In this document: one piece after another, positions 45,483 through 60,401 of the stretch
Position numbering within the stretch: the stretch's first letter is position 1
Layout of the letters: each line of letters opens with the position of its first letter
Assembly (NCBI GenBank): GCA_040510135.1
Contig: JBEVJN010000050.1
Location: 33,461 to 97,460 of the forward strand
DNA from: Acidimicrobiia bacterium
Lineage (GTDB): Bacteria; Actinomycetota; Acidimicrobiia; Spongiisociales; ZC4RG35
DNA length: 64,000 nucleotides
Reading direction: 5' to 3'
Translations under genes and position numbers: made by a program
Notes under the pieces: generated by a model
Told to the model about the DNA's origin: nothing
What the model saw: only the letters and a program-made list of their open reading frames with translations
Databases searched by the model: none

Positions 45483-46270
45483 CTGACCAACGCACCCTTG
45501 TCGACCGGATCGAGCGCTACTGGTTGGAAACCGGAGTGCCCCGGTCTGCGGTCACCGATATGCGGTCGGAGCTCGAACAACATCTCGCCCTGGCCGAGAA
45601 GGATGGCCGTAAGGTGAGCGATGTCGTGGGAGACGACCCTGCCGCGTTCGCCGAGAGTTGGGCGGCGGCATACAGGGTCCGTCGTCATTCGACCGCCACC
45701 TGGAGTCAGGTGCAAACAGGTGAGGCCGAGGTGACACGCAAGACCAGGAGAGACCTGATCTGGTTCGGAGTGGGCATTGGCGCGGTGGTCGCCGCCGTCG
45801 CCGTTGCCGGACAAGGAGGCAACGACGTGGACAATGAGGTCTGGCGGTGGTTGTGGACCATTTTCGCCGTCGTCATGGGGATCGGTGAGATCTTCACCGC
45901 CGGGTTCTTCCTCCTCCCCTTTGCCATCGGCGCCGGCGCGGCCGCCATCCTGGCCTGGGCCGGGGCGGCGGTGATCGCCCAGTGGCTGGTGTTCTTCGGG
46001 GTATCGGTCTTCGCTCTCGCCTATCTGCGCAGGTTCATCACTCGACAGGACGAGGGGGTCCAGCCACGGATCGGAGCGAACCGCTGGGTCGGGATGCAAG
46101 GAGTCGTCATCGATGACATCGATCCGATCAGCGGCGAGGGGATGGTCAAGGTGGAACTGCAGGAATGGAGGGCGATCGCCCCGCAGCCTGTGCCGGCGGG
46201 TCAGACGATCGTCGTCACCGACGTCCAGGGAGCCCGTCTCGTCGTCGAGCCTTTGGAGACCGAGTCGTGA
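45479..46270 (+). CDS. Fusion protein: PadR-associated helical sensor domain (DUF1700/HAAS-like) - TM region - NfeD OB-fold
   Basis: ATGA overlap with padR. The N-terminus VDRIERYWLETGVPRSAVTDMRSELEQHLALAEKDG resembles DUF1700. It has 3-4 hydrophobic spans and a C-terminal NfeD-like VGMQGVVIDDIDPISGEGMVKVELQEWRAI..VVVTDVQGARLVVEP. Confidence 0.8.
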   Translation: MTDQRTLVDRIERYWLETGVPRSAVTDMRSELEQHLALAEKDGRKVSDVVGDDPAAFAESWAAAYRVRRHSTATWSQVQTGEAEVTRKTRRDLIWFGVGIGAVVAAVAVAGQGGNDVDNEVWRWLWTIFAVVMGIGEIFTAGFFLLPFAIGAGAAAILAWAGAAVIAQWLVFFGVSVFALAYLRRFITRQDEGVQPRIGANRWVGMQGVVIDDIDPISGEGMVKVELQEWRAIAPQPVPAGQTIVVTDVQGARLVVEPLETES

Positions 46271-46304
46271 CGGAGCCAGGTAAGAGTCATCTGAAAGGAG
46301 AGAC

Positions 46305-47249
46305 ATGCAAGCTGTGATCGTCCTGTTCGCCGTGCTGGCGCTGGTGCTGATCCTCACCGCCGCCGCCGGGTTCAGAGTCGTCCGGCCCTTCGAGAAGGGG
46401 CTCATCGAGTTCCTCGGTCGCTACCAGCGGACGGTGGACTCGGGTCTGCGCTGGGTGATGCCCTTCGTGAAGAGGCTGACCAAGGTCGACATGCGGGAGC
46501 AGGTGGTCGATGTCCCCCCACAAGAGGTAATCACCAAGGACAACGTGGTGGTGACCGTCGATGCCGTCATCTATTACGAGGCGACCGACCCGGTGAAGCT
46601 GCAGTACAACGTGGGCAACTTCATCCTGGCCGCGACCAAGCTCGCCCAGACCAACCTGAGGAACGTGGTCGGTGACCTCGATCTCGATTCGGCCCTGACC
46701 TCCCGTGAGGTGATCAACGCCAAGCTCCGCCAGATCCTCGACGACGCCACCGACAAATGGGGCGTGCGCGTGGTCCGGGTCGAGCTCCAGCGGATCGAGC
46801 CGCCGGCCGACGTCACCGACGCCATGCACCGTCAGATGAAGGCAGAGCGCGATCGACGAGCCCAGGTCACCGAAGCCGAAGGGGCCAAGGCCGCCGCGGT
46901 GCTCAGGGCCGAGGGGATCCAGCAGAGCCAGATACTCGAGGCCACAGGTCAGGCCGAGGCGATCAAACGCGTGGCCGACGCCGAGCAGTATCAGTTGCTC
47001 ACGGTGGCGGAGGGCGAGGGGCAGGCCATCGAACGGGTCTACGGCGCCATCCACAACGGTGACCCGACGCCGGATCTGATCGCCATCCGCTACCTGGAGA
47101 CATTGGAGAAAGTGGCCGAGGGCCAGGCGACCAAGATCTTCTTGCCACTGGACACCGCTGGTGTGCTCGGCAGCGTCGCGGTCATCGGCGAGATGTTCAG
47201 GGAAGGAGCCGGCGGGCCCGGCCAGGCCCCCGAGTCACAGGGTCAATAG
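46305..47249 (+). CDS. SPFH/band-7 (stomatin-like) protein
   Basis: N-terminal anchor, then the SPFH core [33 protein letters not shown] and [10 protein letters not shown], followed by a coiled-coil tail. Confidence 0.93.
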
Positions 47250-48257
47250 GGGTCGATCGAGAGCGCCGGCGATCCTCGCCACGGTCTCCATCGTGTCCGC
47301 GAAGCCGTCGAGGGTCAGGCTCTGCGGACCATCGCTCAGGGCCTCCTCTGGCCGATCGTGCACCTCTATCAGCAAGCCGTCTGCCCCTGCCGCCACGCCT
47401 GCCGCGGCGAGGCTCGGAACCAACGAGCGCTTCCCGGCCGCGTGGCTCGGGTCGACGATCACCGGCAGATGGGAACGCTCCTTGAGGACGGGCACCGCAC
47501 TGATGTCGAGGGTGCCCCGGGTGGCGGTCTCGAAGGACCGGATTCCTCGTTCGCAGAGCACGACGCGCGGGTTCCCAGCGCCGACGATGTACTCGGCGGC
47601 GAGAAGCATCTCCTCGATGGTCGACATCAGCCCCCTCTTCAGCAGAACCGGAGCGGGTTGCTCGCCAACGGCCGACAGGAGGCGGAAGTTCTGCATGTTC
47701 CTGCTTCCTACCTGGAGCATGTCGACATATCGGTTCATCAGGGCGATGTCCTCCGGGGCGACTACCTCGGAGACGACGCCGAGGCCGGTCTCGGTCCGGG
47801 CCCGGGCCAGCATCTCCAAGCCATCCTCCCCCAGCCCCTGGAAGCTGTACGGCGAGGTCCGGGGCTTGAAGGCACCGCCGCGCAGGAGAACGGCGCCCTC
47901 CTTGGCCACGGATCGGGCGATCGTCAGCAGTTGCTCCTCGGACTCCACCGAGCAGGGCCCCGCGATGACGGCAACACCCTTTCCCCCGATGACGACATCC
48001 CCCACCTTCACCGTGCTCGGCTCGGAGCGGGCCTCCCTGGCGACGAAGGGATAGCGCGGCGCGTCGAGGCTGACCGACTCGACACCTGGCAGGGTGCCGA
48101 TCGACTCGGCGATGCCGGGCTCTGGATCGCCGATGATGCTCACGATGGTGGTCGAGCCCGCCTCACCGACATGGACTCGAAGACCGTGACCCTCGATGAA
48201 GCGGAGGATCGCGGCCTTCTCCCCGAGTGTGCAGGCCGACGAAAGGGTGGCGATCAT
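47235..48257 (-). CDS. 3-deoxy-7-phosphoheptulonate (DAHP) synthase, type I-beta with an N-terminal ACT/ferredoxin-like domain
   Basis: [37 protein letters not shown] and DPSHAAG, preceded by a ~70-aa N-terminal regulatory-type domain. ATGA overlap with trpA. Confidence 0.93.
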
Positions 48258-49021
48258 TGGCGCAACTCTGCCACGAAAGCCACCGGGTCCCCACCAGAGG
48301 CCATGATTTCGACCAGCGCGCTGCCCACGATCACCCCGTCGCAGTGTGGGGCGAGGACCCGAACCTGTTCGGGGGAGCGAACACCGAAACCTGCGAGCAC
48401 CGGGGCCCTCGAAACCGCTCTCACCCGATCCAGGTATGCGGTGACTTCCGGTCCGGCGCCGACGCGGCCCCCGGTCGTGCCTGTCATCGTCACCGCGTAG
48501 GTGAAGCCCTCCGAGGCATTGCCCAGCGTTTCGAGACGATCTGGGCTGGTCACCGGGCTCACCAGCTGCACGAGGCCTATTCCATGCTCGCGAGAAACGG
48601 AGGCAAGCTCGTCCGACTCCTCCAGAGGCAGGTCCGGGACGATGAGGGCGGACACTCCAACCCCCGCCAGTCTGGGCAGGAGGGCCTCGTACCCGTAGGC
48701 CAGCAACGGGTTGAGATAGCTCATCACGACCAGATCCGAATCGAGTCGGCCGAGGCCTTCTATCGCGTCAATGACCGAATTGAGTGTGGTTCCATTCTCC
48801 AGAGCGACTCGGCTCGACTCCTGGATGGTGGCGCCGTCGGCCATAGGGTCGGAGAAGGGGATTCCTATCTCGACCGCGATCGACACTCCGGAAAGCGCCA
48901 GCAGCGCGTCGGCGAAGGTCGGCGACGATGGATAGCCGCCGGTCAGGTAGGGGACGATGGCGGCGTCGCCGCCGGCCAACCTCGTCTCGAGGGCTTGCGC
49001 TCCGGCTACGCCGGCGCTCAT
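48254..49021 (-). CDS. trpA: Tryptophan synthase alpha chain
   Basis: IVPYLTGGYPS, EIGIPFSDPMADG and GFGV. ATG 49021 overlaps the trpB stop (ATGA). Confidence 0.95.
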   Translation of the reverse strand: MSAGVAGAQALETRLAGGDAAIVPYLTGGYPSSPTFADALLALSGVSIAVEIGIPFSDPMADGATIQESSRVALENGTTLNSVIDAIEGLGRLDSDLVVMSYLNPLLAYGYEALLPRLAGVGVSALIVPDLPLEESDELASVSREHGIGLVQLVSPVTSPDRLETLGNASEGFTYAVTMTGTTGGRVGAGPEVTAYLDRVRAVSRAPVLAGFGVRSPEQVRVLAPHCDGVIVGSALVEIMASGGDPVAFVAELRQ

Positions 49022-50193
49022 CGGCTCAGTCCTCGAAGTATGTCGATGTCCTTGTCTCCACGGCCGGAGAGACCAACCAGGACAGTCGCGCCTGGGTGGG
49101 AGCCCAGCCACCTCCGCGCCCCGACGAGGGCATGGCTCGACTCGAGGGCAGGAAGAATCCCCTCGTGGCGCCCCAGCTCATACAGCGCTGACAGGGCCTC
49201 GTCGTCCGTGGCGCTCTCATATGTGACCCGCCCCGTCTCCGCCAACCACGAGTGCTCGGGGCCGACCCCCGGATAGTCCAGTCCAGCCGACACGGAGTGC
49301 GTCTCCTGGACCTGGCCGTCGTCGTCCTGCAAGAGGAAGGAGAAGCTCCCGTGGAGCACTCCCGGGGTCCCTCTCCCGATGGTGGCGGCGTTGTGGCCTA
49401 GCTCGGGCGATGTCCCTCCGGCCTCGACCCCGATCAGGTCGATCGGGTCCTCGAGAAGAGGATGAAACAGGCCGATTGCGTTGGAGCCTCCGCCGACGCA
49501 CGCCACGGCGGCATCGGGGAGAAGTCCGGCTCGCTCCAGCATCTGACGGCGAGCCTCGCGTCCGATGACCGATTGCAGCTCTCTCACCAGCCATGGGTAA
49601 GGGTGGGGACCGACAGCCGAGCCGAGGAGGTAGTAGGTGGTCTCGGGCCGCGTCACCCAGTCGCGCAGCGCCTCGTTGATCGCAGCACGCAGGGTGGCGT
49701 CCCCTGACGTCACCGGCTGGACCTTCGCTCCGAGAATCCGCATACGCTCGACATTCGGCGCCTGCCGTTCGATGTCCACCGAGCCCATGTAGACGGTGCA
49801 ATCCAGGCCGAGCCGGGCACAGGCGGCGGCGGTGGCCACGCCATGCTGACCCGCTCCGGTCTCGGCGATCACCCGCTCGGCACCCATCTCCCTGGCGAGG
49901 AGGGCTTGACCGATGGCGTTGTTGATCTTGTGCGCCCCGGTGTGGGCCAGGTCCTCGCGCTTCAACCACAACTCGCCACCCCAAACCTCGCCGAGGCGGA
50001 CAGCGTGGGTCAGTGCCGTCGGCCGGCCGACCCACGAGGACAGTTCCTCCTCATACATATTGAGGAAGCCGGGGTCATCGAGAAGCAGCCGGGATGTCTC
50101 CTCCAACCTGGTCAGGGCGGGCACCAGGATCTCAGGAACGTAGCGCCCCCCAAAGCGTCCGTAGCGGCCGGTCTCGTTGCGAGCAGTCGTCAC
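49018..50193 (-). CDS. trpB: Tryptophan synthase beta chain
   Basis: GRFGGRYVPE, LKREDLAHTGAHKINN and GGGSNAIG. GTG 50193 follows AGGAGG and overlaps the trpF stop (GTGA). Confidence 0.96.
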   Translation of the reverse strand: MTTARNETGRYGRFGGRYVPEILVPALTRLEETSRLLLDDPGFLNMYEEELSSWVGRPTALTHAVRLGEVWGGELWLKREDLAHTGAHKINNAIGQALLAREMGAERVIAETGAGQHGVATAAACARLGLDCTVYMGSVDIERQAPNVERMRILGAKVQPVTSGDATLRAAINEALRDWVTRPETTYYLLGSAVGPHPYPWLVRELQSVIGREARRQMLERAGLLPDAAVACVGGGSNAIGLFHPLLEDPIDLIGVEAGGTSPELGHNAATIGRGTPGVLHGSFSFLLQDDDGQVQETHSVSAGLDYPGVGPEHSWLAETGRVTYESATDDEALSALYELGRHEGILPALESSHALVGARRWLGSHPGATVLVGLSGRGDKDIDILRGLSR

Positions 50194-50810
50194 GCTGAGC
50201 CTCCTACACCCACGCTGCGCGCCGCCTCGACGAACGCGTGCATTCGCTTGGGATCCTTCTTGCCCGGAGCCTTCTCGATGCCCGAACTGACGTCGACGCC
50301 GAATGGCTTGACCAGGGAGACTGCATCCCCAACGTTCTCGGGGTCCAGGCCACCCGCCAGGATCAGACGACCGGGACTGCTGAGCCGTGCCAGCCTCTCC
50401 CACCTGGGGGTGAGACCTGTGCCGCCTCGCGCCGCCCGGTCCACCACGACCATCTCCCGGTCAGCCGAGCGCACCGCGATACCGAAGTCCCGATCGAGGG
50501 AATCTCCGTCGACGACGACCGGAAGCAGCTTGTCGGCTGAGATCCCAACCAGTGTCGACAGCTCAGACTGGAAGAGGTCGGGACCGATCTCTTCCTGTGC
50601 TCGTCGCAGCAGCTCGGGAGTCGGATCGTGGAAGACGGCCACTCCGAGAACCGATTCGGGCAGCCTTGCTTGCAGCCCGGCCGCAACCGACAGGGAGATC
50701 TGCCGGGCGGACGGGGTGAGGACGAGCCCGATGGCGTCGGCCCCCGCCTCGACGGCTGTGTCGAGATCCGCCTCGGTCGTGATCCCGCACAGTTTCACGA
50801 AGAGCCTCAT
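50190..50810 (-). CDS. trpF: Phosphoribosylanthranilate isomerase
   Basis: VKLCGITTEADL, ADAIGLV, LAGGLDPENV and GVDVSSGIE. Confidence 0.93.
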   Translation of the reverse strand: MRLFVKLCGITTEADLDTAVEAGADAIGLVLTPSARQISLSVAAGLQARLPESVLGVAVFHDPTPELLRRAQEEIGPDLFQSELSTLVGISADKLLPVVVDGDSLDRDFGIAVRSADREMVVVDRAARGGTGLTPRWERLARLSSPGRLILAGGLDPENVGDAVSLVKPFGVDVSSGIEKAPGKKDPKRMHAFVEAARSVGVGGSA

Positions 50811-51616
50811 GACGGCACGGTCACCCTTCGACGACCGGCATCCACCATCTCGCTTACCAGCAGAGCTGGATCGTCGGTTCTCATCAGCGCAGAGCCAACG
50901 AGGGCGGCGCGGTAACCGCAGCCGGCAACCCGCTCGACGTCTGCCGGCGCCGCGATGGCACTCTCGGCCACGGTCACGGCATCGCCGGGGATGTGTCCGG
51001 AGAGCGTGACGTGGCGTTCCGGTATGACCTCCAGGGTGTCGAGGTCCCGGCAGTTCACACCCGCGAGGAGGTTGCGTCGCCCGGCCATCACGTTGCGAAT
51101 CTGCTCCAGGTCATCCTCGTCGAAGGCTTCGAGAAGGGCGAAGATCCCGCTGTCGGAAACGGCATCGAGGATCCCGATCAGGGATTCCGTGCTGAGGATT
51201 CGGGCAATCACTAGCACCCCATCGGCTCCCGCCTCGCGTGCCTCGTACACCTGGATCGGGTCGACAAGGAAGTCTTTGGCCAGCACCGGGATCGACACAG
51301 CAGTGGCAACATCCCGCAGCATGTCGATAGACCCTCCGAACTCGGAAGGCTCGGTCAGCACCGAGATCATCCCGGCGCCACCGGCTTGATACGCCAGGGC
51401 GGTCTCCGCAGGGGAACGATTCGGGAAAAGACCCTCCGATGGCGAGCGAGGCTTGACCTCGGCAATTAGATCGAACAGGGCTCCGAAGCCCGACAACGGG
51501 AGCGGTTCAGGCCCGGCCAGCACCGACTCGCGGCGCAAGCGCAACGAGCGGTGTGCGGCAGCTTCTTCTGCTCGTCGGTGGGATCGAGCCACCATCGTGT
51601 CGAGGAACCTGCTCAA
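50807..51616 (-). CDS. trpC: Indole-3-glycerol phosphate synthase
   Basis: IAEVKPRSPS, ISVLTEP..FGGS, KDF and GVNCRDL. TTG start overlaps the trpD stop (TTGA). Confidence 0.93.
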   Translation of the reverse strand: MSRFLDTMVARSHRRAEEAAAHRSLRLRRESVLAGPEPLPLSGFGALFDLIAEVKPRSPSEGLFPNRSPAETALAYQAGGAGMISVLTEPSEFGGSIDMLRDVATAVSIPVLAKDFLVDPIQVYEAREAGADGVLVIARILSTESLIGILDAVSDSGIFALLEAFDEDDLEQIRNVMAGRRNLLAGVNCRDLDTLEVIPERHVTLSGHIPGDAVTVAESAIAAPADVERVAGCGYRAALVGSALMRTDDPALLVSEMVDAGRRRVTVPS

Positions 51617-52632
51617 CGTCCGGCCTCCGATGCCCCGAACTCCTCGAGAGCCTTCGCGAGACCGAGCGCCCTCCCGTCGTCGATTGCGGCGCGGGCCATC
51701 GCCACCGCCTGGTCCGGCTCGCGGGCGCGGCCGCTGACTTCCAGCGCCAGGGACGCCCCGAGAACGATTGCATCCCGATGAGGGCCATGCTCGCCTTCGA
51801 GTGCGTCGAGCAGGCGCCTGGCGTTGTGCTCCGGCGATCCTCCGGCCAGGTCATCCACCTCGCATCCGGCCATCCCGACGTCGGCCGGGTCACGGACCGA
51901 TTCCTCGATCGTGCCTGGCCTCACGTCGAAGAGGGTGAACTCACCCAGTGGCGACGGCTCGTCCCAACCCGCCGCCCCGTGGACGACGAACGCCCTCTCG
52001 ATGTCGAGACCCGAGAGAGCCCCGGCCATGAGCCTGGCCGCCGACGGGTCGAAAGCCCCGATCACCAGGTTGGGAGGCGCAGCCGGGTTGGTGAGCGGCC
52101 CCAGAATGTTGAACACGGTGCGTACCGCCAGGGCGCGGCGCACCGGGCCGACCGCCGCCATCGCAGGATGAAAGTAGGGGGCGAAAAGGAAGGTGAAGCC
52201 GGTGATCTCGAAGAGACGCCGCACCTGGCCCTCGTCCATGGGAATCGGCAGGCCAAGTGCCTCGAGCACATCAGCGCTCCCGCTCTGGCTGGTCATCGAG
52301 CGGTTCCCATGCTTGACAACCGGAACCCCGCTTGCCGCCGCCAGGATGGCCGACCCTGTGGAGAGATTCAGGCTCCCCGACCGGTCGCCACCGGTTCCTA
52401 CGACGTCGACGGCACCGGTGACGTCGACCTGGGGATCGGTGGCGAGCGCTCGCATCGCCCGAGCGAGGCCACGGACTTCCGCCGGCGTCTCCCCCTTCGC
52501 CCTGAGGGCGGCGAGAATGGCACCGGCGACTGCGCGATCGACGTCGCCGCCGGTCAGTTGGCGAAGGAGGTCCTCGGCCTGCTCTTCTGTCAGGTCGATG
52601 CCACGGAGCAGGTCCTCGAGAACCTGGCTCAT
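51613..52632 (-). CDS. trpD: Anthranilate phosphoribosyltransferase
   Basis: DVVGTGGDRSGSLNLST, VVKHGNRS and NILGPLTNP. ATG 52632 overlaps the trpG stop. The ORF extension to 53313 is rejected. Confidence 0.95.
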   Translation of the reverse strand: MSQVLEDLLRGIDLTEEQAEDLLRQLTGGDVDRAVAGAILAALRAKGETPAEVRGLARAMRALATDPQVDVTGAVDVVGTGGDRSGSLNLSTGSAILAAASGVPVVKHGNRSMTSQSGSADVLEALGLPIPMDEGQVRRLFEITGFTFLFAPYFHPAMAAVGPVRRALAVRTVFNILGPLTNPAAPPNLVIGAFDPSAARLMAGALSGLDIERAFVVHGAAGWDEPSPLGEFTLFDVRPGTIEESVRDPADVGMAGCEVDDLAGGSPEHNARRLLDALEGEHGPHRDAIVLGASLALEVSGRAREPDQAVAMARAAIDDGRALGLAKALEEFGASEAGR

Positions 52633-53210
52633 CGCTGACCCCCCAAATCGAGGAAGTTGCGCAGAAGCAGCTCGCCGTGCGGGGTGAGCATGCTCTCGGG
52701 ATGGAACTGCACACCTTCGACCGGCAACGACCGGTGACGGATCCCCATGATCACTCCATCGGAGGTGAACGAGGTAACTACTAGATCTGTCGGGAGATCG
52801 TCCTCCATCACCGCGAGGGAGTGATAGCGCCCCGCATCGAATGGGTTGGGCAGACCGGCATAGATCGACGCCGAGTCGTGATACACCGGTGACGACTTGC
52901 CATGTCTCAGCTCCATGGCGTGGTCGACGGTGCCGCCTAGGGCGGCGGCGATGGCCTGATGCCCGAGGCACACACCCAGGATCGGGACCACGTCGAGGAG
53001 TCCCGAGATCAGCTTCATCGACTCTCCGGCCGCCTCGGGACGCCCCGGGCCGGGCGAGACCACGAGGTGGGTGGGCTCGATATCCCGGGCCTCTTCGAGG
53101 CTCACGCCATCGTTGGTGCGGACCACCACGTCGGCGCCGAGAATCCGCAATGCCTGGACCAGGTTGTAGGTGAATGAGTCGTAGTTGTCGACGAGGAGCA
53201 CGCGGCTCAT
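52629..53210 (-). CDS. trpG: Anthranilate synthase component II (glutamine amidotransferase)
   Basis: VLLVDNYDSFTYNLVQ, GVCLGHQ and GVQFHPES. ATG 53210 overlaps the trpE stop. Confidence 0.95.
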   Translation of the reverse strand: MSRVLLVDNYDSFTYNLVQALRILGADVVVRTNDGVSLEEARDIEPTHLVVSPGPGRPEAAGESMKLISGLLDVVPILGVCLGHQAIAAALGGTVDHAMELRHGKSSPVYHDSASIYAGLPNPFDAGRYHSLAVMEDDLPTDLVVTSFTSDGVIMGIRHRSLPVEGVQFHPESMLTPHGELLLRNFLDLGGQR

Positions 53211-54583
53211 AGACCACCCGCCGCCGTCTCGAGGGCGCCACGCATCGCCCCGGACTTGGAGAGGACTTCCTCCCATTCGGCCGAGGGGACACTGTCGGCG
53301 ACGATGCCTGCACCTGCCTGGTACGCGTACCCGCCCTCGCTCATCACGATGGTGCGGATGGCGATCGCTTGATCCATCGTCCCGCCGTGCCCGAAATAGC
53401 CGACGGTCCCGGCATAGAGCCCCCGCGGAACCGGCTCGAGCTCCTGCAACAGCTCCAACGCCCGGATCTTCGGTGCTCCGACGACGGTGCCGGCGGGAAA
53501 CGCGGCTGCGAAGAGGTCGAAGGCATCGCTGCCCGCCTCCAGGATCCCGCTCACGCCGCTGACGAGATGGATCACGTGGCTGTATCGCTCGATGGCGCGG
53601 TACGGGTCGACCTTGATCGAACCGGGCACGGCCACCCGGCCCAGATCGTTGCGGGCCAGGTCCACCAGCATGACATGCTCGGCCGCCTCCTTGGCATCGC
53701 CGATCAGCTCTTCCTCGGCGATTCGATCCCTTTGCTCGTCGTTGTGACGGGGTCTCGTTCCGGCGATCGGACGCAGCTCGGCAGTCGCCCCTCGCAGCCG
53801 GACCAGCGCTTCTGGCGAGGATCCGATGACTTTGGTTTCGCCCAAGTCGCAGAAATACATGTAGGGCGAAGGATTGAGAAGGCGAAGCCCTCGATAGACA
53901 GTGAAGGGATCGAGATCCGTCTCACCGGTGAATCGGACCGAGGGCACGATCTGGTAGACGTCGCCCTCACCGATGTGATGACGCGCTCGCTCCACCACAT
54001 CCTCGTACTGCTGCTTGCCCATCGACCCGACGGGCGCCTCGTAGCTGCCGGCGCGGCTGGTTCCGGGCAATCCGCTCGCGAGCAACGTGATCACCTCACG
54101 CCGCAGGGCGAGGCGATCCGAATCGGGCCCGTCGTGGAGCAGGGCGGCGCGCCGGCTCAGGTGATCGAAGACGATGACACTTGGTGGCCCGTAGAGCTGG
54201 ACCTCTGGTTGCGGACTCGCAGGCGGGGCCCATCCGGCGAGACGATGCGCGACATCGAAGCCGATCGCCCCGACGAGCCCACCGTGGAACGGGATCGAGG
54301 TCGAGATCGGGCCTGGCACCGGCGCTTCCACCAGGATCTTGCGCAGCCCGTCCATGAGCCCTTGCATCGACCCGTCGGTTTCGATGCGGGTGGTCCCGGC
54401 CTGGATCGACCGCCCGTCACTGCGAACATCGAGGCCAGAGCCAAAGCCGATGAACGAGTAGCGCCCGACTTGGTCACCCTGCTCGACGCTCTCGAGAAGG
54501 AAGCGTGGGCCTAAGGGGGCGAGTTTGAGGTACACCGACGTAGGCGTGTCGAGGTCGGCCGGTATGTCGAAGATGGTGTTCAT
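53207..54583 (-). CDS. trpE: Anthranilate synthase component I
   Basis: LESVEQG, IAGTRPR, DLARNDLGRV, FPAGTVVGAPK and YAGTVGYF. ATG 54583 follows GGAGGA. Confidence 0.96.
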   Translation of the reverse strand: MNTIFDIPADLDTPTSVYLKLAPLGPRFLLESVEQGDQVGRYSFIGFGSGLDVRSDGRSIQAGTTRIETDGSMQGLMDGLRKILVEAPVPGPISTSIPFHGGLVGAIGFDVAHRLAGWAPPASPQPEVQLYGPPSVIVFDHLSRRAALLHDGPDSDRLALRREVITLLASGLPGTSRAGSYEAPVGSMGKQQYEDVVERARHHIGEGDVYQIVPSVRFTGETDLDPFTVYRGLRLLNPSPYMYFCDLGETKVIGSSPEALVRLRGATAELRPIAGTRPRHNDEQRDRIAEEELIGDAKEAAEHVMLVDLARNDLGRVAVPGSIKVDPYRAIERYSHVIHLVSGVSGILEAGSDAFDLFAAAFPAGTVVGAPKIRALELLQELEPVPRGLYAGTVGYFGHGGTMDQAIAIRTIVMSEGGYAYQAGAGIVADSVPSAEWEEVLSKSGAMRGALETAAGGL

Positions 54584-54614
54584 TGGGTCCTCCGCCGGTC
54601 CGGCGTCCGGGCTT

Positions 54615-54654
54615 CGAACGAGAAAACCCATCTGCCGGAGTCCGGAGATGGGTT
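54615..54654 (-). terminator. trp attenuator: terminator hairpin (9-bp outer stem AACCCAUCU/AGAUGGGUU plus inner CCGG pairs) followed by UUUUCUCGUU
   Basis: Read directly on the minus strand, 31 nt upstream of the trpE ATG and 22 nt downstream of the leader stop. An alternative antiterminator pairing is present. Confidence 0.75.
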
Positions 54655-54676
54655 CGCATGGATCAGAGAGCGTGAA

Positions 54677-54757
54677 CTATCCGACCGAAGCCACCTCCGG
54701 CGCGCGCCAAGCCCACCACCAGGTGCCTTCGGCAAGCGAGAGATTCCTTCGGCTCAT
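54677..54757 (-). CDS. trpL: trp leader peptide, 26 aa, MSRRNLSLAEGTWWWAWRAPEVASVG
   Basis: Hand-translated ATG..TAG. It has three consecutive TGG codons plus a fourth two codons later, immediately upstream of the terminator hairpin. Confidence 0.75.
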   Translation of the reverse strand: MSRRNLSLAEGTWWWAWRAPEVASVG

Positions 54758-54791
54758 CCTGCCGGAACGCTACGCCGGACCCGCCGATCCG

Positions 54792-55307
54792 TCAACCTCC
54801 GACTCGATTCATCCCGGCCAACGTCTGCTGCACGTCGTCGGGTGAGACCGGCGGGTAGAAAACCATCGTGTACAGGTCGCAGCGCTCACCGGGAGCCTCG
54901 AACCAACCCGCCACCCAGGTTCCATCAGGATGAGGGCCGACCACCCCCCTGGTCCCATCGATGTGCACCGCGCCCCGATCGCCCGGCCATTCCACCGCAG
55001 GGAGAGTCCCACGAATCAGGGCGAGGGCGACGACATCATCCCGACCCCAGAGCGTTGCACTGCTCCCCGGCACCGAGGTCCACACGTCCGGCTCGATCTC
55101 CTCGGGATCCAGCACTGCCGTGCCGATGCCGATGGGGAGGAAATCGAGCTCGTAGGGCGGTGGCGGGCACTCCACCGGAGGTGCGGTCGTGCTGACGTCG
55201 AGTGTGGTGGTGGTGACCGCCATGGTGGTCGTCGTGGTGCTCGAACCGGCCTCGGAACAGGCGATGAACAGCACCAGGAGGAGAGGGAGAGAGCGCTTCA
55301 TCCGCAT
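54792..55307 (-). CDS. Lipoprotein, unknown function
   Basis: Signal peptide with lipobox MRMKRSLPLLLVLFIAC, followed by a Thr-rich linker. The upstream ORF extension is rejected. Confidence 0.7.
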   Translation of the reverse strand: MRMKRSLPLLLVLFIACSEAGSSTTTTTMAVTTTTLDVSTTAPPVECPPPPYELDFLPIGIGTAVLDPEEIEPDVWTSVPGSSATLWGRDDVVALALIRGTLPAVEWPGDRGAVHIDGTRGVVGPHPDGTWVAGWFEAPGERCDLYTMVFYPPVSPDDVQQTLAGMNRVGG

Positions 55308-55329
55308 GGCGGATGATATGACGGCAGGG

Positions 55330-56871
55330 TCAACCAGGTGAGGATCGGGGCGTCGACTTCCCGTGGAGCGCGGCGAGGTCTCTAACTGCAGGACCATGGA
55401 TCACCTTGCCCTCGACGTCAAAACGCGATCCATGACAGGGGCAATCCCAGGTCTGCTCAGCATTGTTGAACCCCACCTGGCACCCACGATGAGTGCAGAT
55501 GGGCGAAACGGCGCGAACAGCGCCGTTCTCGTCACGGAAAGCTGCGGCCTTGTGGCCGTCGATCGAGACGACATCACCCGAGCCCGCGGCCACGTGCTCC
55601 AGCCCTTTCAAGGGTGACGGGAGCACTCGACCCGTGAGCAGGCTCTTGGCGAAACCGACGCCGGCCTTGAGCAAACCGGGTGCGGAGTGCTTTAGGGCGG
55701 GCCGTTTCGAATCGAAAACCCTGGCCAGCGGATTGTCCCGCCCCATGGCCTGATCGACCATGATTGCCGCCGCGATCGTCCCGTTGGCCATACCCCACTT
55801 GGCGAAGCCGGTGGCCACGAAGACCCGGCCCGAAGAACCAAGAGGGCCCACGAATGGAAGACCATCGACGCTTCGATAGTCCTGTGCCGACCACCGATAG
55901 TCGACCTCCGTAGCCCCAAACCGGTTCTGGGACCACGATGCGAGGGCCCGATAGCGATCTTCGGTGTCCGCCTCCTGTCCCGAGGGATGGGCCTCGCCAC
56001 CCACGATTGCGTAGTCATCGGCAGCGGACCGGATGGAGCGAATCGGTCGATCGACGCTGATGTACATACCCGATGGTGGGTCATCTGGGGGTCGGAAGGC
56101 GACCGCGTATGACCTGGAGGCGGTCATTCGGGCGAAATATGCACCGGTGTCGACAAATGGGATGTGGGACGCAACAACGATCACCTCGGCGGAGACGATC
56201 CCGCGATCGGTGACCACTTCCCCCGCCTTGGCGTCGAGATCCATCGCCCTGGTTGCCTCTAAGACGGCGCCGCCGTCGGCGAGGATCCCCCGGACGAGAC
56301 CTTGGCAATACTTGCGAGGATGGAACTGCGCCTGATCCTCGAGACGGGCCGCCCCGGCGATTTCGAACGGGAGGTCTGACTCCGTTGTGAAGGAGACTTC
56401 AAGGCCTGCTCTCCGCGCCGCCTCGACCTCGGCCTCGACCTTCGCGACCCCGTCTCCGCTCTCGGAGTAGGTCAATGCCGGAGCCATTTGCAGATCGCAA
56501 TCGATGTGGTCGTGGTGGACTCGATGACGGATCATCTCTAGGCCTTCGAGGTTGGCCACCGCGTAGGCAGCCGATGTCTCATTGCCCCACCGCTCGGACA
56601 GCTCGCTGTAGGTGGTGGATTGCAGGGCGGTCACTTTGGCCGTGGTCAGCCCGGTAACTCCAGAGCAGACCCGTCGGGCCTCGATCACCGCGACAGTCAG
56701 ACCTTGCTCGCTCAGGAGGCGTGCGGCGGTTAGACCTGTGATCCCCGCCCCGATCACCAAAGCCTCGACCGTCATGTCTCCTCGGAGGACCGGGTGCTCA
56801 GGCCACTCAGAGGTCGCCATCCACAACGAGGGGTTGACCAGGCCGGAGACGTCACCGTTCGCCGACTGCAT
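55330..56871 (-). CDS. FAD-dependent oxidoreductase fused to a C-terminal Rieske [2Fe-2S] domain
   Basis: ALVIGAGITGLTAARLL dinucleotide fold and a Rieske motif CTHRGC..17 aa..CPCHGS. The start at ATG 56871 is approximate. Confidence 0.88.
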   Translation of the reverse strand: MQSANGDVSGLVNPSLWMATSEWPEHPVLRGDMTVEALVIGAGITGLTAARLLSEQGLTVAVIEARRVCSGVTGLTTAKVTALQSTTYSELSERWGNETSAAYAVANLEGLEMIRHRVHHDHIDCDLQMAPALTYSESGDGVAKVEAEVEAARRAGLEVSFTTESDLPFEIAGAARLEDQAQFHPRKYCQGLVRGILADGGAVLEATRAMDLDAKAGEVVTDRGIVSAEVIVVASHIPFVDTGAYFARMTASRSYAVAFRPPDDPPSGMYISVDRPIRSIRSAADDYAIVGGEAHPSGQEADTEDRYRALASWSQNRFGATEVDYRWSAQDYRSVDGLPFVGPLGSSGRVFVATGFAKWGMANGTIAAAIMVDQAMGRDNPLARVFDSKRPALKHSAPGLLKAGVGFAKSLLTGRVLPSPLKGLEHVAAGSGDVVSIDGHKAAAFRDENGAVRAVSPICTHRGCQVGFNNAEQTWDCPCHGSRFDVEGKVIHGPAVRDLAALHGKSTPRSSPG

Positions 56872-57010
56872 GAGGCGAAGGACATACCCGATTTCGACAA
56901 CAGGCGAAACGCCAGAGCGAACCACCTTCTCTGACCGTTGGCGTCATATCGGCTATCTTCCCGTCCGCCGGGTCCCCGTATTCGATCGGCCCGGTGCCCG
57001 GAGGGGGCAA

Positions 57011-58690
57011 GTGCCCGGTGATCGCTTCATCGAGTTGGCCACTGCCGAGGATCGGAGGGTCCTCGACATACTGTTTCGTCATGCCAGCGAGGCCGTATCC
57101 GTTCAGGACCGTTCCGGCCGTTTGCTGTACGCAAATGACGAGGCAGCCCGAATTGTCGGCTTCCGATCAGGCGCCGAGCTGGTCTCGACACCTCCAGAGG
57201 ACATCGTCGGGCGCTTTGAGATGATCGACCGAGCAGGTTTGCCGTTGGCTGTGGAGAGTCTCCCCGGAAGGAAGGTCATGGCCGGGGCGCCAGTCGCCGA
57301 GGCAGTGATCGGATATCGCCGTCCGGGCTCGCCACGAGCGCGCTGGACCCGGGTTCGGGCCAGCCCGATCAAGAACGACGCGGGGGAGGTCGTCCTGGTC
57401 ATCAACTTCTTCCAGGACATCACGTCTCAATTCCGACGCGATGAGATCCGGGAGCTTCTCTACAACGTGTACGAAGCGTTGGGCTCCTCACTGGACCGCG
57501 ACGAGAACCTGCAATCGCTGGCCAGGGCGCTGGTACCGCGAATGGGGATATGGTGCTCGGTGCATCTCCTCGAAGGCGGGATTCTCACACCGGTGGCCGT
57601 TGTCTACCCGGACGAGGACGACGCCCACAATCTCGTCCAACTGGCGGGCTCGGCCGCCCATGTCTCGGTGGACGAGGACAGACTGCAGGGAAGGGTGGCG
57701 AAGAGCGGGGAACCCGAATTGATAGGCCCAATTACCGATGAGATGCTCGAGCAGGCAGAGACCACTGAGGGCAGGGAGTTGATCGAGATCCTCCGCCGAC
57801 TCCAATTGAACTCGATCGCCTGCGTACCGATCGCGATCGGTCGACGTGTGATCGGCACCCTGACCATGGCGAGGAGCGCTCCGGACCCCGAGCTGGACCT
57901 GGCCGACGTCGACGTGCTCGGCGCAGTTGCCGATCGAGCGGCAGCAGCGCTCGAGAACGCCGGCCTCTACCAACAGCAGCGGGAGATTGCGGAGACTCTG
58001 CAAGCCGTTCTGACGCCGAAATCTCTGCCCAGAGTGCCCGGGTTCCAGGTGGCGGCTCGCTACCAGCCCCTGTCGCTGGTCGGACACGTCGGTGGCGACT
58101 TCTACGATGTCTTCCCCACAGCCGACGGTCGAACCGCCGTGTTGGTTGGCGACATCGCCGGCAAGGGTGTCGAGGCGGCGGCCGCTGTCGGACTGGCCAG
58201 GTACACCCTGAGGTCGACCATCGCCCTCGACCCGAGTCCCATCACCGTGATCACAAGGATCAACGAGTCGTTGCTCGAAGAGGAGCAAATGTGCACCCTG
58301 GCCTATGCGATCCTCGAAGATCATGGTGATCAGTCCAGACTCAGCGTGACACTCGCCGGTCACCCCCCTGCGATCGTCGTAACCGCTGACGGTGAGATGG
58401 AGCGGCTCGGAGAGCCCTGCCCCCCGGTTGGCGTCATGGCGGAAGTCATCCCCATCGAAAGGGAGCGATGGCTGGCGCCTGGTGACACGATTGTCATGTA
58501 CACCGACGGGTATGCCTTTTCCGGGATGAACCCCGCCGAGAGTGTCGAGCTGGCCCTTGCGAAGTCTGAGACCGATGACCCCGATCGACTCCTCGATCAC
58601 ATGCTCGAACTGCTCCTGGCCGACCTGGGGCCGAGAGGGCCACGAGACGACATCGCCCTCCTGGCCATGGTGGCCAACCCCACAGTTTGA
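57011..58690 (+). CDS. PAS-GAF-PP2C (SpoIIE-type) serine phosphatase, RsbU/RsbP-like
   Basis: GTG 57011 follows GAGGGGG. PAS-like region (ASEAVSVQDRSGRLLYANDEAARIVGF), a GAF-like middle, and PP2C motifs GGDFYDVF, VLVGDIAGKGVEAA and MYTDG. Confidence 0.85.
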   Translation: MPGDRFIELATAEDRRVLDILFRHASEAVSVQDRSGRLLYANDEAARIVGFRSGAELVSTPPEDIVGRFEMIDRAGLPLAVESLPGRKVMAGAPVAEAVIGYRRPGSPRARWTRVRASPIKNDAGEVVLVINFFQDITSQFRRDEIRELLYNVYEALGSSLDRDENLQSLARALVPRMGIWCSVHLLEGGILTPVAVVYPDEDDAHNLVQLAGSAAHVSVDEDRLQGRVAKSGEPELIGPITDEMLEQAETTEGRELIEILRRLQLNSIACVPIAIGRRVIGTLTMARSAPDPELDLADVDVLGAVADRAAAALENAGLYQQQREIAETLQAVLTPKSLPRVPGFQVAARYQPLSLVGHVGGDFYDVFPTADGRTAVLVGDIAGKGVEAAAAVGLARYTLRSTIALDPSPITVITRINESLLEEEQMCTLAYAILEDHGDQSRLSVTLAGHPPAIVVTADGEMERLGEPCPPVGVMAEVIPIERERWLAPGDTIVMYTDGYAFSGMNPAESVELALAKSETDDPDRLLDHMLELLLADLGPRGPRDDIALLAMVANPTV

Positions 58691-58745
58691 CCCCGCCGGG
58701 AAACGGGTAATCCGTGAGAACACGCGACCCAGGAGAACCAAGATC

Positions 58746-59342
58746 ATGAAAGACGCGCAGGTGAACGAGCTTCTCTATCAAGCCCTCGAGACGGAGCTCG
58801 GAGGGGTCAAGGTCTACGAGACCGCGATCAGATGCACCATCAACGACGACCTTCGCACCGAATGGCAGGGGTACCTCGAGGAGACTCAGAACCACGTGCG
58901 AATCGTCGGCGACGTCTTCTCCCAGTTGGATCTCGACCCGGAGGTCGAGACCACGGGTCGGGCCATCGTCCGGGCCAAGGGCGAGGCGCTGATCGCAGCC
59001 ATGGAGACCGCTCTCGAGGGCGGGGACATGAGCAACGCCCAACTCGTCGCCGCCGAATGTGTCGTCGACGCAGAGATCAAGGATCATGCCAACTGGGAAC
59101 TGATCGGGGAGATCGCCCAGGAGCTCTCCGGCGACCATGCCCGTGTCTTGCAAGCCGCCTACGAGCAGGTTGAAGAGGAGGAAGACGAGCACCTGTACCA
59201 CACCCAGGGCTGGGCGAGAGAGCTCTGGCTGGAGTCGCTAGGCCTGACGGCCGTGCTGCCCCCGCCGGAGGAGCAGAAGAAGGTAAAGACAGCGATCGGG
59301 GCATCACGTGCCAAACAGTCTCGAGAGGACTACATCGACTGA
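58746..59342 (+). CDS. Ferritin-like four-helix-bundle family protein (unassigned)
   Basis: AGGAGA RBS. Paired E..H-type helices (LETELGGVKVYE, EETQNHV, AECVVDAEIKDHANWE, EEDEHLYH). Confidence 0.65.
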   Translation: MKDAQVNELLYQALETELGGVKVYETAIRCTINDDLRTEWQGYLEETQNHVRIVGDVFSQLDLDPEVETTGRAIVRAKGEALIAAMETALEGGDMSNAQLVAAECVVDAEIKDHANWELIGEIAQELSGDHARVLQAAYEQVEEEEDEHLYHTQGWARELWLESLGLTAVLPPPEEQKKVKTAIGASRAKQSREDYID

Positions 59343-59459
59343 CGACCCGCATGGTCGCTCTCTACGAGCCCTTATGCTCGGGTTTCGCACTGTCACGACG
59401 CTAATCTTTGGTTCCCCTCCCGGTCGGAAGGGTGCCAGGTTCTCAGCAGCGTCTGCATC

Positions 59460-60401
59460 GTGACCATTCAGCAAGCCCCCCAATTCCGCCATGAGGCTTT
59501 GCCCTACGAGTCGAGCGAATTGCTCTTGGAACAGGTGACGTCGTTCCTCGGTCCTGCGCTCGACCGCGAAGAGCCCGTGCTCATCGCTGCCCGGTCGGAC
59601 ACCCTGCCCGGGTTCCAAACCGAGCTAGTCGGCCATCGCGGCCACATCGACCTGGCTCCGATGGAAGAGATCGGCCGCAACCCCGGACGGTTGATCTCCG
59701 TCTGGAGCGACTTTCTCGACCGGCATGGGGCAGAAGGTCGAACCGTGTGGGGCATCGGAGAGCCCATCTACGCCGGGCGAGACCCGCTCGAGATAGAGGA
59801 GGGCGAGGTGTACGAGCAGCTGGTGAATGGAGCATTCACCGAGCCTGAGTTCACCCTCCATCTCGGTTGCCCGTATGACACCACATCACTCCCGTCCGAT
59901 GTGGTCGACGAAATGGCGGCGTCCCATCCGTTCATCGGCAGCGGTGCCGAATCGCGGGCCAATGCGAGGTTCCTTGCCGACGGCCATGCCGAGCGCAAGT
60001 TGTCCCCTGCCCTGATCCAGGACGATGCATTCGCTACGTTCACTAAGGACAGCCTGGGCGAGATGAGGAGAGAGCTCGCTGATGCCGCGCGCCGATTCGG
60101 CGTCGAGGAGGAGCGAATCCCCGACCTGGTGCTGGCCGTCAACGAGATCGCCACCAACAGCATCCTCTACACGGGCACCGGTTCCCTGGGTGTATGGCAG
60201 GCGAGCGGACGTCTGGTCTGCGAAGTTCGAGATCTCGGCTACATCGAGGATCCACTGGTGGGCCGACGTCGACCCAAGACCTCCGAGGAGCGAGGACGCG
60301 GGATCTGGTTCGCCCACCAGGTCGCCGATCTGATCCAAATGCGGAGCAACCCTTCGGGCACGACGGTTCGCATCCTATTCGACTGCGTCTCCGAGAGCTG
60401 A
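59460..60401 (+). CDS. MEDS domain - HATPase (RsbW-like anti-sigma factor / STAS kinase) protein
   Basis: The N-terminus FRHEALPYESSELLLEQVTSFLGPALDREEPVLIAA resembles MEDS. The C-terminal region LAVNEIATNSILY..ERGRGIWFAHQVADL is GHKL-kinase-like. GTG start. Confidence 0.8.
   Translation: MTIQQAPQFRHEALPYESSELLLEQVTSFLGPALDREEPVLIAARSDTLPGFQTELVGHRGHIDLAPMEEIGRNPGRLISVWSDFLDRHGAEGRTVWGIGEPIYAGRDPLEIEEGEVYEQLVNGAFTEPEFTLHLGCPYDTTSLPSDVVDEMAASHPFIGSGAESRANARFLADGHAERKLSPALIQDDAFATFTKDSLGEMRRELADAARRFGVEEERIPDLVLAVNEIATNSILYTGTGSLGVWQASGRLVCEVRDLGYIEDPLVGRRRPKTSEERGRGIWFAHQVADLIQMRSNPSGTTVRILFDCVSES

What the first reader, a model, noticed from the sequence alone, without database searches (positions are those of the whole stretch)
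54615..54757. Unannotated trp leader peptide (WWWAW) with a complete three-structure transcription attenuator
Seen on the minus strand: a 26-codon ORF, ATG 54757 to TAG 54677, encoding MSRRNLSLAEGTWWWAWRAPEVASVG. It contains TGG-TGG-TGG at 54721-54713 plus a fourth TGG.

Twenty-two nt later lies a hairpin AACCCAUCUCCGGACUCCGGCAGAUGGGUU followed by UUUUCUCGUU, which looks like a terminator. It ends 31 nt before the trpE ATG.

Two alternative pairings are visible:
- Segment CCGGAGGUGG (54700-54691, inside the leader ORF) can pair over 10 positions (one G-U) with the terminator's 5' arm CCAUCUCCGG. This would be the antiterminator.
- Segment GAAGGCACCU, just before the Trp codons, can pair 9/10 with AGGUGGCUUC, which overlaps the antiterminator strand. 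This would be the protector.

This is the classical ribosome-stalling attenuation logic known from E. coli and reported for Corynebacterium glutamicum. The ORF is below the track's size cut-off and would be missed by standard annotation.
Basis: seen in the sequence. Interest (0 to 1): 0.6.

Follow-up and report, generated by a model that had tools for sequence, protein, structure and literature searches.

The report
Tryptophan leader-peptide attenuator before trpE
A tiny 26-codon gene rich in tryptophan codons, followed by a switchable transcription stop signal, sits in front of the tryptophan-synthesis operon of an uncultured soil actinobacterium (class Acidimicrobiia); it is a well-conserved but textbook-type "attenuator", so real and ordinary.

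Summary
On the minus strand a 26-codon ORF (54757-54677, MSRRNLSLAEGTWWWAWRAPEVASVG) is followed by a bulged 14-bp hairpin plus a U-rich tail. That tail ends about 31 nt before trpE, the first gene of trpE-G-D-C-F-B-A plus a DAHP synthase gene.

The element is conserved upstream of trpE in about 50 Acidimicrobiia-type genomes (all MAGs, TrpE 63-99% identical):
- The ORF is 25-26 codons, with at least 3 Trp codons at positions 13-17.
- Terminator and antiterminator pairings are kept in 96-97% of cells, with compensatory changes.
- Folding with a ribosome mask gives the antiterminator when the ribosome is parked on the Trp codons (37/37) and the terminator when it sits at the stop codon (37/37).

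Two points change:
The conserved 1:2 structure folds the whole ORF back on itself, with the Trp codons near the tip.
- A TTGACN-17-TAnnnT promoter ends 8-10 nt before the leader ATG and there is no Shine-Dalgarno, so the leader peptide is probably translated from a leaderless mRNA, as reported for Streptomyces lividans trpL1 and Sinorhizobium trpL.

Related leaders precede the orthologous trpE in Gemmatimonadota, with weaker model matches in Gammaproteobacteria. Verdict: a new member of a known kind, of modest interest. No experimental evidence was available.

The parts
54790..54795 (-). -35 hexamer TTGACG of the predicted leader promoter. It overlaps the TGA stop (54794-54792) of the upstream 201-aa ORF.
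   Evidence: sequence. TTGACN-17 nt-TAnnnT in 36/36 sequences (window plus 35 relatives). Function is inferred, no TSS data.
54767..54772 (-). -10 hexamer TAGCGT (actinobacterial TAnnnT type). It ends 9 nt before the leader ATG, so the predicted start of transcription is about 54760-54757.
   Evidence: the -10 ends 8-10 nt before the ATG in 36/36, and 0/36 have a Shine-Dalgarno-like tetramer. The generic sigma-70 scan did not call it.
54677..54757 (-). Leader ORF trpL, 26 codons plus stop: MSRRNLSLAEGTWWWAWRAPEVASVG.
   Evidence: Conserved in frame and at 25-26 codons in about 50 relatives.
54707..54721 (-). Regulatory Trp codons: UGG UGG UGG (54721-54713), GCU, UGG (54709-54707). These are codons 13-15 and 17.
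   Evidence: At least 3 Trp codons at positions 13-17 in all relatives.
54714..54725 (-). Segment 1b, CACCUGGUGGUG (ORF nt 33-44). It pairs with nt 54-66, so the 1:2 hairpin has the Trp codons in its stem and tip.
   Evidence: RNAalifold. (98.3% of cells paired, 11 pairs). (-10.9 kcal/mol).
54739..54753 (-). Segment 1a (ORF nt 5-19, GCCGAAGGAAUCUCU). It pairs with nt 60-74 and closes a long hairpin over the whole ORF.
   Evidence: ORF hairpin -37.3 kcal/mol; compensatory changes at pairs 5:74, 7:72 and 10:69.
54684..54704 (-). Segment 2 (ORF nt 54-74). Its core CCGGAGGUGG (54700-54691) is the antiterminator strand.
   Evidence: 97.3% of cells paired with segment 3, with two compensatory pairs in L060 and G-U to G-C in 10 sequences.
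54661..54686 (-). Small hairpin GGUCGGAUAG...CUCUCUGAUC that contains the UAG stop codon. It lies in the loop between segments 2 and 3.
   Evidence: 100% of cells paired in the close clade, replaced by other local hairpins in other clades.: -9.5 kcal/mol alone; it lowers the antiterminator fold from -15.8 to -25.7 kcal/mol.
54642..54655 (-). Segment 3, the 5' arm of the terminator (GAACCCAUCUCCGG). This arm is shared between the antiterminator and the terminator.
54617..54638 (-). Segment 4, the 3' arm of the terminator (CCGGCAGAUGGGUU, with one bulged C), plus the U-rich tail UUCUCGUU.
   Evidence: 95.7% of cells paired, with U-A to C-G covariation in 9 sequences.: -16 to -22 kcal/mol. The generic terminator scan did not call it.
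54588..54593 (-). Shine-Dalgarno GGAGGA of trpE.
   Evidence: conserved GAGGA before the trpE start in the alignment.
53207..54583 (-). trpE, anthranilate synthase component I. It is the first gene of the regulated operon.
47235..53210 (-). Rest of the operon: trpG (53210-52629), trpD (52632-51613), trpC (51616-50807), trpF (50810-50190), trpB, trpA (ends 48254) and a DAHP synthase gene (48257-47235).

Best explanation
This is a classical ribosome-mediated transcription attenuator of the trp operon.

Inferred steps:
1. Transcription starts about 0-3 nt before the leader AUG, from a TTGACG-17-TAGCGT promoter.
2. A ribosome translates the 26-codon leader while RNA polymerase moves on.
3. When charged tRNA-Trp is scarce, the ribosome stalls on codons 13-15 or 17. 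It then covers or sterically blocks the upstream half of the ORF (segment 1) and leaves CCGGAGGUGG (segment 2) free.
4. Segment 2 pairs with CCAUCUCCGG (segment 3) as soon as that is made. The terminator cannot form and trpEGDCFBA plus the DAHP synthase gene are transcribed.
5. When Trp is plentiful, the ribosome runs to the UAG, which starts 12 nt after segment 2, and masks segment 2. If the ribosome has already left, segment 2 folds back on segment 1.
6. Segments 3 and 4 then form the hairpin with its U-tail, and transcription stops about 31 nt before trpE.

Shown here: the sequence elements, their conservation and covariation, and the thermodynamic feasibility of the switch. Inferred: the transcription start, the stalling, and Trp-dependent termination.
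For: - Anatomy read.
- The operon behind it is trpE-G-D-C-F-B-A plus DAHP synthase. Only about 31 nt separate the U-tail from the trpE ATG, so trpE must be transcribed through the hairpin.
- The leader ORF is conserved at 25-26 codons, with at least 3 Trp codons at positions 13-17, in about 50 Acidimicrobiia-type genomes with TrpE 63-99% identical. Its first 12 codons vary freely but stay in frame.
- The leader stays with trpE where the upstream gene differs. It is never seen before another gene.
- Terminator: 95.7% of cells paired, with a U-A to C-G covarying pair.
- Antiterminator: 97.3% paired, with two compensatory pairs in L060. The U-to-C change in segment 3 stays pairable with both partners.
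- 1:2 pairing: nt 33-44 with 54-66 is 98.3% paired. Nt 5-19 with 60-74 shows compensatory changes at three pairs.
- Masked folding: with the ribosome on W15, the antiterminator forms in 37/37. With the ribosome at the stop codon, the terminator forms in 37/37. Free RNA gives the terminator in 30/37.
- Energies: terminator -21, antiterminator -15.8 (-25.7 with the loop hairpin), ORF hairpin -37.3 kcal/mol.
- Promoter conserved in 36/36 and no Shine-Dalgarno in any.
- Known precedents: classical trp attenuators in Corynebacterium and Streptomyces (PMC1262725), leaderless trpL1 MFAHSTRNWWWTAHPAAH in S. lividans (PMC8079986), and leaderless rnTrpL in S. meliloti (PMC6614838).
Against: - There is no experimental evidence. 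The RNA data are assembled contigs only, from soil metatranscriptomes of relatives. They show the region is present but give neither 5' nor 3' ends, and some extend upstream of the predicted promoter.
- The U-tract is short and interrupted (UUUUCUCGUU).
- The generic promoter and terminator scans call neither element.
- With the whole transcript present, the terminator fold is usually a few kcal/mol more stable than the antiterminator fold even under the stalled-ribosome mask. The switch must therefore be kinetic, as in E. coli.
- Most paired columns are invariant, so covariation rests on few independent events.
- The 5'-proximal segment 1a lies behind a ribosome stalled at the Trp codons. Whether it is really prevented from re-pairing with segment 2 is an assumption about steric hindrance.
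Confidence: 0.85

Rival explanations
1. The leader works mainly at another level than intrinsic termination. For example, the hairpin might only stabilise or pause the transcript, and the mini-ORF might tune trpE translation (reinitiation or coupling) or Rho access rather than a terminator/antiterminator choice.
For: The U-tract is weak and interrupted, and the generic scan does not call a terminator. Leader peptides without obvious terminators, and a reinitiation role, have been proposed for Actinobacteria (PMC1262725, PMC4833913).
Against: The hairpin plus U-run is kept in all 37 aligned sequences and the further relatives. The antiterminator strand is conserved and compensated. trpE has its own strong GGAGGA Shine-Dalgarno 75 nt after the leader stop codon and outside the hairpin.
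Confidence: 0.06
2. The hairpin is simply the terminator of the upstream 201-aa gene (54792-55397), and the Trp-rich mini-ORF is a chance reading frame.
For: The hairpin lies 140 nt after that gene's stop codon on the same strand.
Against: Only about 31 nt remain before trpE, so there is no room for a separate promoter. A conserved promoter lies between the upstream gene and the mini-ORF. The leader and hairpin stay with trpE in relatives whose upstream gene is different. The ORF frame, length and Trp codons are conserved while its N-terminal codons vary. WWW leaders also precede the orthologous trpE in other phyla.
Confidence: 0.02
3. The same terminator is controlled by a trans factor, such as a T-box or uncharged tRNA, a TRAP-like RNA-binding protein, or a riboswitch ligand, and not by the translating ribosome.
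For: None specific. It is considered only because these are the other known ways to attenuate trp operons.
Against: No Rfam family (T-box, riboswitches) matches 53500-56000 even at E <= 10. The conserved elements are fully accounted for by the ORF and the three pairings. The Trp codons are the feature conserved across phyla.
Confidence: 0.03

Closest known systems
Escherichia coli trp operon leader (trpL; Rfam Trp_leader RF00513)
   Same: A short leader ORF with adjacent Trp codons and four segments giving 1:2, 2:3 (antiterminator) and 3:4 (terminator plus U-run). The stop codon is placed so that a terminating ribosome masks segment 2. The Trp codons lie about 13-15 nt before segment 2.
   Different: There is no sequence or covariance-model match (no hit at E <= 10). 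The ORF has 26 codons with WWWxW, against 14 codons with WW in E. coli (own knowledge). There is no 5' UTR or Shine-Dalgarno for the leader. Segment 1 extends to the very 5' end of the RNA. Whether a TrpR-type repressor exists could not be checked.
Streptomyces trpL1 upstream of trpE (S. venezuelae attenuator; S. lividans TK24 trpL1, MFAHSTRNWWWTAHPAAH)
   Same: Same phylum (Actinomycetota), three consecutive Trp codons, a leader reported as leaderless, and a Rho-independent-type hairpin plus U stretch before trpE (PMC8079986, PMC1262725).
   Different: The Streptomyces leader has 18 codons and precedes a monocistronic trpE. Published actinobacterial attenuators share a GGCC-type motif (PMC1262725), whereas this one uses GGAGGUGG/CCAYCUCC. 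Here the leader gates a full eight-gene operon.
Corynebacterium glutamicum trp operon leader
   Same: An actinobacterial trp operon (trpE first) preceded by a leader peptide with three consecutive Trp codons. It is an experimentally supported attenuator (PMC4046766; PMC4833913 citing Heery and Dunican 1993).
   Different: The peptide and RNA sequences are different. No similarity was detected here, and no direct comparison of structures was made.
Sinorhizobium meliloti trpL / rnTrpL
   Same: A leaderless leader transcript before trpE(G) that is regulated by ribosome-mediated attenuation (PMC6614838).
   Different: In S. meliloti the released attenuator RNA also acts in trans on trpDC. Nothing here tests such a role, and here the operon is complete and in one piece.

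Membership tests
Classical ribosome-mediated trp attenuator (functional class) | Short translatable ORF with clustered Trp codons immediately upstream of Trp biosynthesis genes | tested here: met
   Conserved in about 50 genomes.
Classical ribosome-mediated trp attenuator (functional class) | Intrinsic terminator (GC-rich hairpin plus U-run) between the leader ORF and the first structural gene | tested here: met
   The hairpin is -21 kcal/mol and 95.7% of cells are paired across 37 sequences, with one covarying pair. Caveats: the U-run is short and interrupted, and the generic scan does not call it.
Classical ribosome-mediated trp attenuator (functional class) | Antiterminator pairing that shares a strand with the terminator (mutually exclusive) | tested here: met
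   97.3% paired, with compensatory changes in L060; it forms in 37/37 when segment 1 is masked and segment 4 is absent.
Classical ribosome-mediated trp attenuator (functional class) | Anti-antiterminator (1:2) pairing that includes or adjoins the regulatory codons | tested here: met
Classical ribosome-mediated trp attenuator (functional class) | Geometry: a ribosome stalled at the Trp codons leaves segment 2 free, and a ribosome at the stop codon masks it | tested here: met
   The first base of the third UGG lies 15 nt before the start of segment 2, with 12 nt between them. Segment 2 ends 11 nt before the first base of the UAG. In one clade the stop lies 6 nt closer.
Classical ribosome-mediated trp attenuator (functional class) | Trp- or tRNA-Trp-dependent premature termination in vivo or in vitro | not testable with these tools
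   Only assembled metatranscriptome contigs were available.
Rfam Trp_leader RF00513 (enterobacterial sequence family) | Match to the family covariance model at or above its gathering score | tested here: not met
   no match to any Rfam leader family in 53500-56000 at E <= 10.
Leaderless leader peptides of Actinomycetota (as in S. lividans trpL1) | Transcription start at, or within a few nt of, the leader start codon, and no Shine-Dalgarno | tested here: inconclusive
   a conserved promoter whose -10 ends 8-10 nt before the ATG in 36/36, and no Shine-Dalgarno in any. No mapped 5' end exists, and some RNA contigs of relatives run further upstream.

The most novel reading that the evidence does not exclude
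The terminated leader RNA of about 135 nt, and/or its 26-residue peptide, may have a second, trans-acting role, as shown for rnTrpL in Sinorhizobium meliloti. This would help explain two observations. A roughly 50-nt core (CACACCUGGUGGUGG...GCGCGCC.GGAGGUGG.UUCGGUC..UAG) and the ...PEV(A/G)S.. tail are kept almost unchanged between Acidimicrobiia and Gemmatimonadota, although their TrpE proteins are only about 60% identical. The ORF length is also held at 25-26 codons. My evidence does not exclude this reading, but nearly every conserved base is already explained by the attenuator pairings.
Probability: 0.07. Interest if true: 0.6.

Novelty: new member of a known kind. Interest (0 to 1): 0.3.

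Why it matters
It adds a well-supported, unannotated regulatory element to an uncultured, soil-abundant actinobacterial class, and it shows how that class controls its whole trp operon plus a DAHP synthase gene.

It also shows that one recognisable attenuator type travels with one trpE lineage across several phyla. That type has WWW codons, a GGAGGUGG antiterminator strand and an ACCCAYCUCC terminator arm, and the leader is probably leaderless.

This is useful for genome annotation (a covariance model can now find it) and for studying how attenuators evolve. It does not change the understanding of attenuation itself.

Tried and rejected
- Rfam scan of 53500-56000 at E <= 10: no leader, T-box or riboswitch family, only two chance-level hits elsewhere.
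- Generic promoter and terminator scan: nothing called. The -10 is of the TAnnnT type, and the stem has a bulge and a short U-run. This is taken as a limit of the scan, not as evidence of absence.
- The genome search was shut. I therefore could not look for TrpR, a second leader before trpS, or the genome's own taxonomy.
It is replaced by the 33-44:54-66 and 5-19:60-74 pairings.
- Public RNA runs: only Logan contigs, from relatives at 88-95% identity, with no usable ends. In run X23 two of three contigs on 14 kb lie on the leader, which is suggestive but far too sparse, and the run's RNA status is a guess.
- Peptide-level versus RNA-level constraint on the C-terminal half of the ORF: I inspected the alignment by eye only. 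The variable third positions are also the covarying RNA positions, so the two could not be separated.
- Search for the leader in front of genes other than trpE: none found among 44 pattern matches.

Full report
**Observation.** On the minus strand the window reads ATG (54757) AGC CGA AGG AAT CTC TCG CTT GCC GAA GGC ACC TGG TGG TGG GCT TGG CGC GCG CCG GAG GTG GCT TCG GTC GGA TAG (54677). This encodes MSRRNLSLAEGTWWWAWRAPEVASVG. TGGTGGTGG occurs three times in the 64-kb window against 0.6 expected, and only this copy lies in a mini-ORF before trpE. Twenty-two nt after the stop comes AACCCAUCUCCGGACUCCGGCAGAUGGGUU, followed by UUCUCGUU. The trpE ATG is at 54583.

**Context.** Behind the hairpin lie these genes:
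- trpE (54583-53207)
- trpG (53210-52629)
- trpD (52632-51613)
- trpC, trpF, trpB and trpA
- a DAHP synthase gene (48257-47235)

The nearest public records are soil MAGs. The 99%-identical one is labelled 'Acidobacteriota', but most relatives at 81-92% TrpE identity, from independent studies, are labelled Acidimicrobiia or Actinomycetota. I take the organism to be an Acidimicrobiia bacterium. The genome search was shut, so the genome itself could not be searched.

**Conservation of the ORF.** I examined 36 loci with TrpE 66-99% identical, and 15 more found with a DNA pattern (TrpE 63-79% identical). In all of them the same mini-ORF precedes trpE wherever the contig reaches it.
- The ORF has 26 codons in the first 36 loci and 25-26 in the others.
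- Codons 2-12 vary freely but never lose frame. Codons 13-17 keep at least three Trp (WWWAW, WWWGW, WLWAW, RWWAW, WWWRW, WWWKW).
- In several relatives the upstream gene is a different one, yet the promoter, leader and hairpin stay with trpE.
- No copy precedes any other gene.

**Structures.** These were counted on the 37-sequence alignment A1.
- *Terminator:* 95.7% of cells are paired, with a U-A to C-G exchange in nine sequences.
- *Antiterminator* (CCGGAGGUGG, nt 58-67, with CCAUCUCCGG): 97.3% of cells are paired. In L060 both strands changed together (CUCGAGGUGG with CCACCUCGAA). The U-to-C change in the shared strand stays pairable with both partners.
It shows 67% paired, no better than controls.
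- *Conserved 1:2 pairings:* RNAalifold and pair counts show that CACCUGGUGGUG (nt 33-44, including the Trp codons) pairs with nt 54-66 (98.3% paired). The 5' end of the ORF (nt 5-19) pairs with nt 60-74, with compensatory changes at three pairs.
- *Whole-ORF fold:* in this window the whole ORF folds into one long hairpin of -37.3 kcal/mol with the Trp codons at the tip.
- *Loop hairpin:* a small hairpin that contains the stop codon sits in the loop between segments 2 and 3. It lowers the antiterminator fold from -15.8 to -25.7 kcal/mol. The terminator is -21 kcal/mol.

**Switch test.** I folded each of the 37 leaders under ribosome masks.

| Condition | Result |
|---|---|
| 5' part masked up to 12 nt past the third Trp codon, RNA ending after segment 3 | antiterminator forms in 37/37 |
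| Ribosome at the stop codon | terminator forms in 37/37, antiterminator in 0/37 |
| Free full-length leader | terminator in 30/37, with segment 2 paired to the 5' half |

With segment 4 present, the terminator fold is usually a few kcal/mol more stable even under the stall mask. The choice must therefore be kinetic, as in the E. coli model.

**Promoter.** All 36 sequences that include upstream DNA (the window plus 35 relatives) carry TTGACN, a 17-nt spacer and TAnnnT (here TTGACG 54795-54790 and TAGCGT 54772-54767). The -10 ends 8-10 nt before the leader ATG, and none has a Shine-Dalgarno-like tetramer. The leader peptide is therefore probably translated from a leaderless or nearly leaderless RNA. 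This is inferred, because no 5' ends are available.

**Wider family.** A covariance model built from the Acidimicrobiia leaders finds full-length matches at the equivalent place, just upstream of trpE, in other phyla.
- Gemmatimonadota: E from 6e-8 to 2e-4.
- Gammaproteobacteria and a Cryosericum MAG: weaker, E about 1e-3 to 0.3.

These loci also carry WWW mini-ORFs, ACCCAYCUCC-type terminators, and a -10-like hexamer about 8-10 nt before the leader ATG. The exact Acidimicrobiia core motif occurs in 44 stretches of the species-level genome collection, all of them MAGs labelled Acidimicrobiia, Actinomycetota or (Microflora Danica MAGs) Acidobacteriota.

**RNA data.** Only assembled contigs were available. 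Soil and rhizosphere metatranscriptomes contain the leader of relatives, but they give no ends, and some contigs extend upstream of the predicted promoter. This is inconclusive.

**Comparison with what is known.**
- Classical trp attenuators with two or three UGG codons were predicted for Corynebacterium and Streptomyces, and have experimental support in C. glutamicum and S. venezuelae (PMC1262725, PMC4833913).
- S. lividans trpL1 (MFAHSTRNWWWTAHPAAH) is leaderless and is followed by hairpins and a U stretch before trpE (PMC8079986).
- S. meliloti rnTrpL is leaderless (PMC6614838).

The present element works like these. It is not a member of the enterobacterial Rfam family, and its pairing motif differs from the GGCC-type motif described for other Actinobacteria. 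I found no description of it for Acidimicrobiia in the papers searched, but that search is not exhaustive.

**Rivals.**
- A chance ORF plus the upstream gene's terminator is excluded by linkage to trpE, the conserved promoter and the lack of room for another promoter.
- T-box, TRAP or riboswitch control has no support.
- A mainly translational or Rho-based role cannot be excluded without experiments. It is less economical given the conserved terminator/antiterminator pair.

**Verdict.** This is a real, strongly conserved, unannotated trp attenuator of the classical kind, with a probably leaderless leader peptide. It is a new member of a known kind. Confidence in the mechanism is about 0.85 and interest is 0.3.

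Noticed in passing
window 47235-48257 (-): A DAHP synthase gene (DAHP_synth_1 with an N-terminal ferredoxin-like domain) is the last cistron after trpA. The first step of the common aromatic pathway would therefore also be under the Trp attenuator.
   Followed up: partly
L037:536-647, L038:2837-2948, L054, L055, L051, L034 (Gemmatimonadota); L040, L044, L045, L049 and others (Gammaproteobacteria): The orthologous trpE of other phyla is preceded by related leaders, for example ...AHTWWWWYSARPEVGSVK and RRWWWRHS. They have the same GGAGGUGG/CCCACCUC logic and a -10-like hexamer about 8-10 nt before the leader ATG. The nucleotide core is nearly identical between Acidimicrobiia and Gemmatimonadota although their TrpE is only about 60% identical. 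This points to either very old conservation or transfer of the operon together with its attenuator.
   Followed up: partly
window 54792-55397 (-): The upstream 201-aa ORF has no Pfam or NCBIfam family. Its tail ...GERCDLYTMVFYPPV...GMNRVGG is conserved in many relatives, and its TGA stop lies inside the -35 hexamer of the leader promoter.
   Followed up: no
L001, L002, L003 and other Microflora Danica MAG records: The closest records are titled 'uncultured Acidobacteriota bacterium', whereas relatives at 81-92% TrpE identity from other studies are titled Acidimicrobiia or Actinomycetota. The phylum label of the former looks wrong.
   Followed up: no
L019, L021, L023, L033: Some relatives have replaced one of the three tandem Trp codons (UGG to UUG or CUG giving WLW, or UGG to CGG giving RWW) but keep three Trp codons among positions 13-17.
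   Followed up: no
window 54509-54723, run X23: In a small run of uncertain type ('RNA?'), two of the only three contigs that lie on 46000-60000 fall on the leader. One is a 74-nt insert (54723-54650) flanked by adapter sequence, at the highest depth. This might reflect an abundant short leader RNA, but the data are far too sparse to say.
   Followed up: partly
L086, L089, L104 and L081, L093, L115: Two further clades have 25-codon leaders. In one the stop codon lies 6 nt closer to the antiterminator strand (...APEVAS*). In the other there are 11 rather than 12 codons before WWW. The loop hairpin between segments 2 and 3 is rebuilt from different sequence in several clades.
   Followed up: partly
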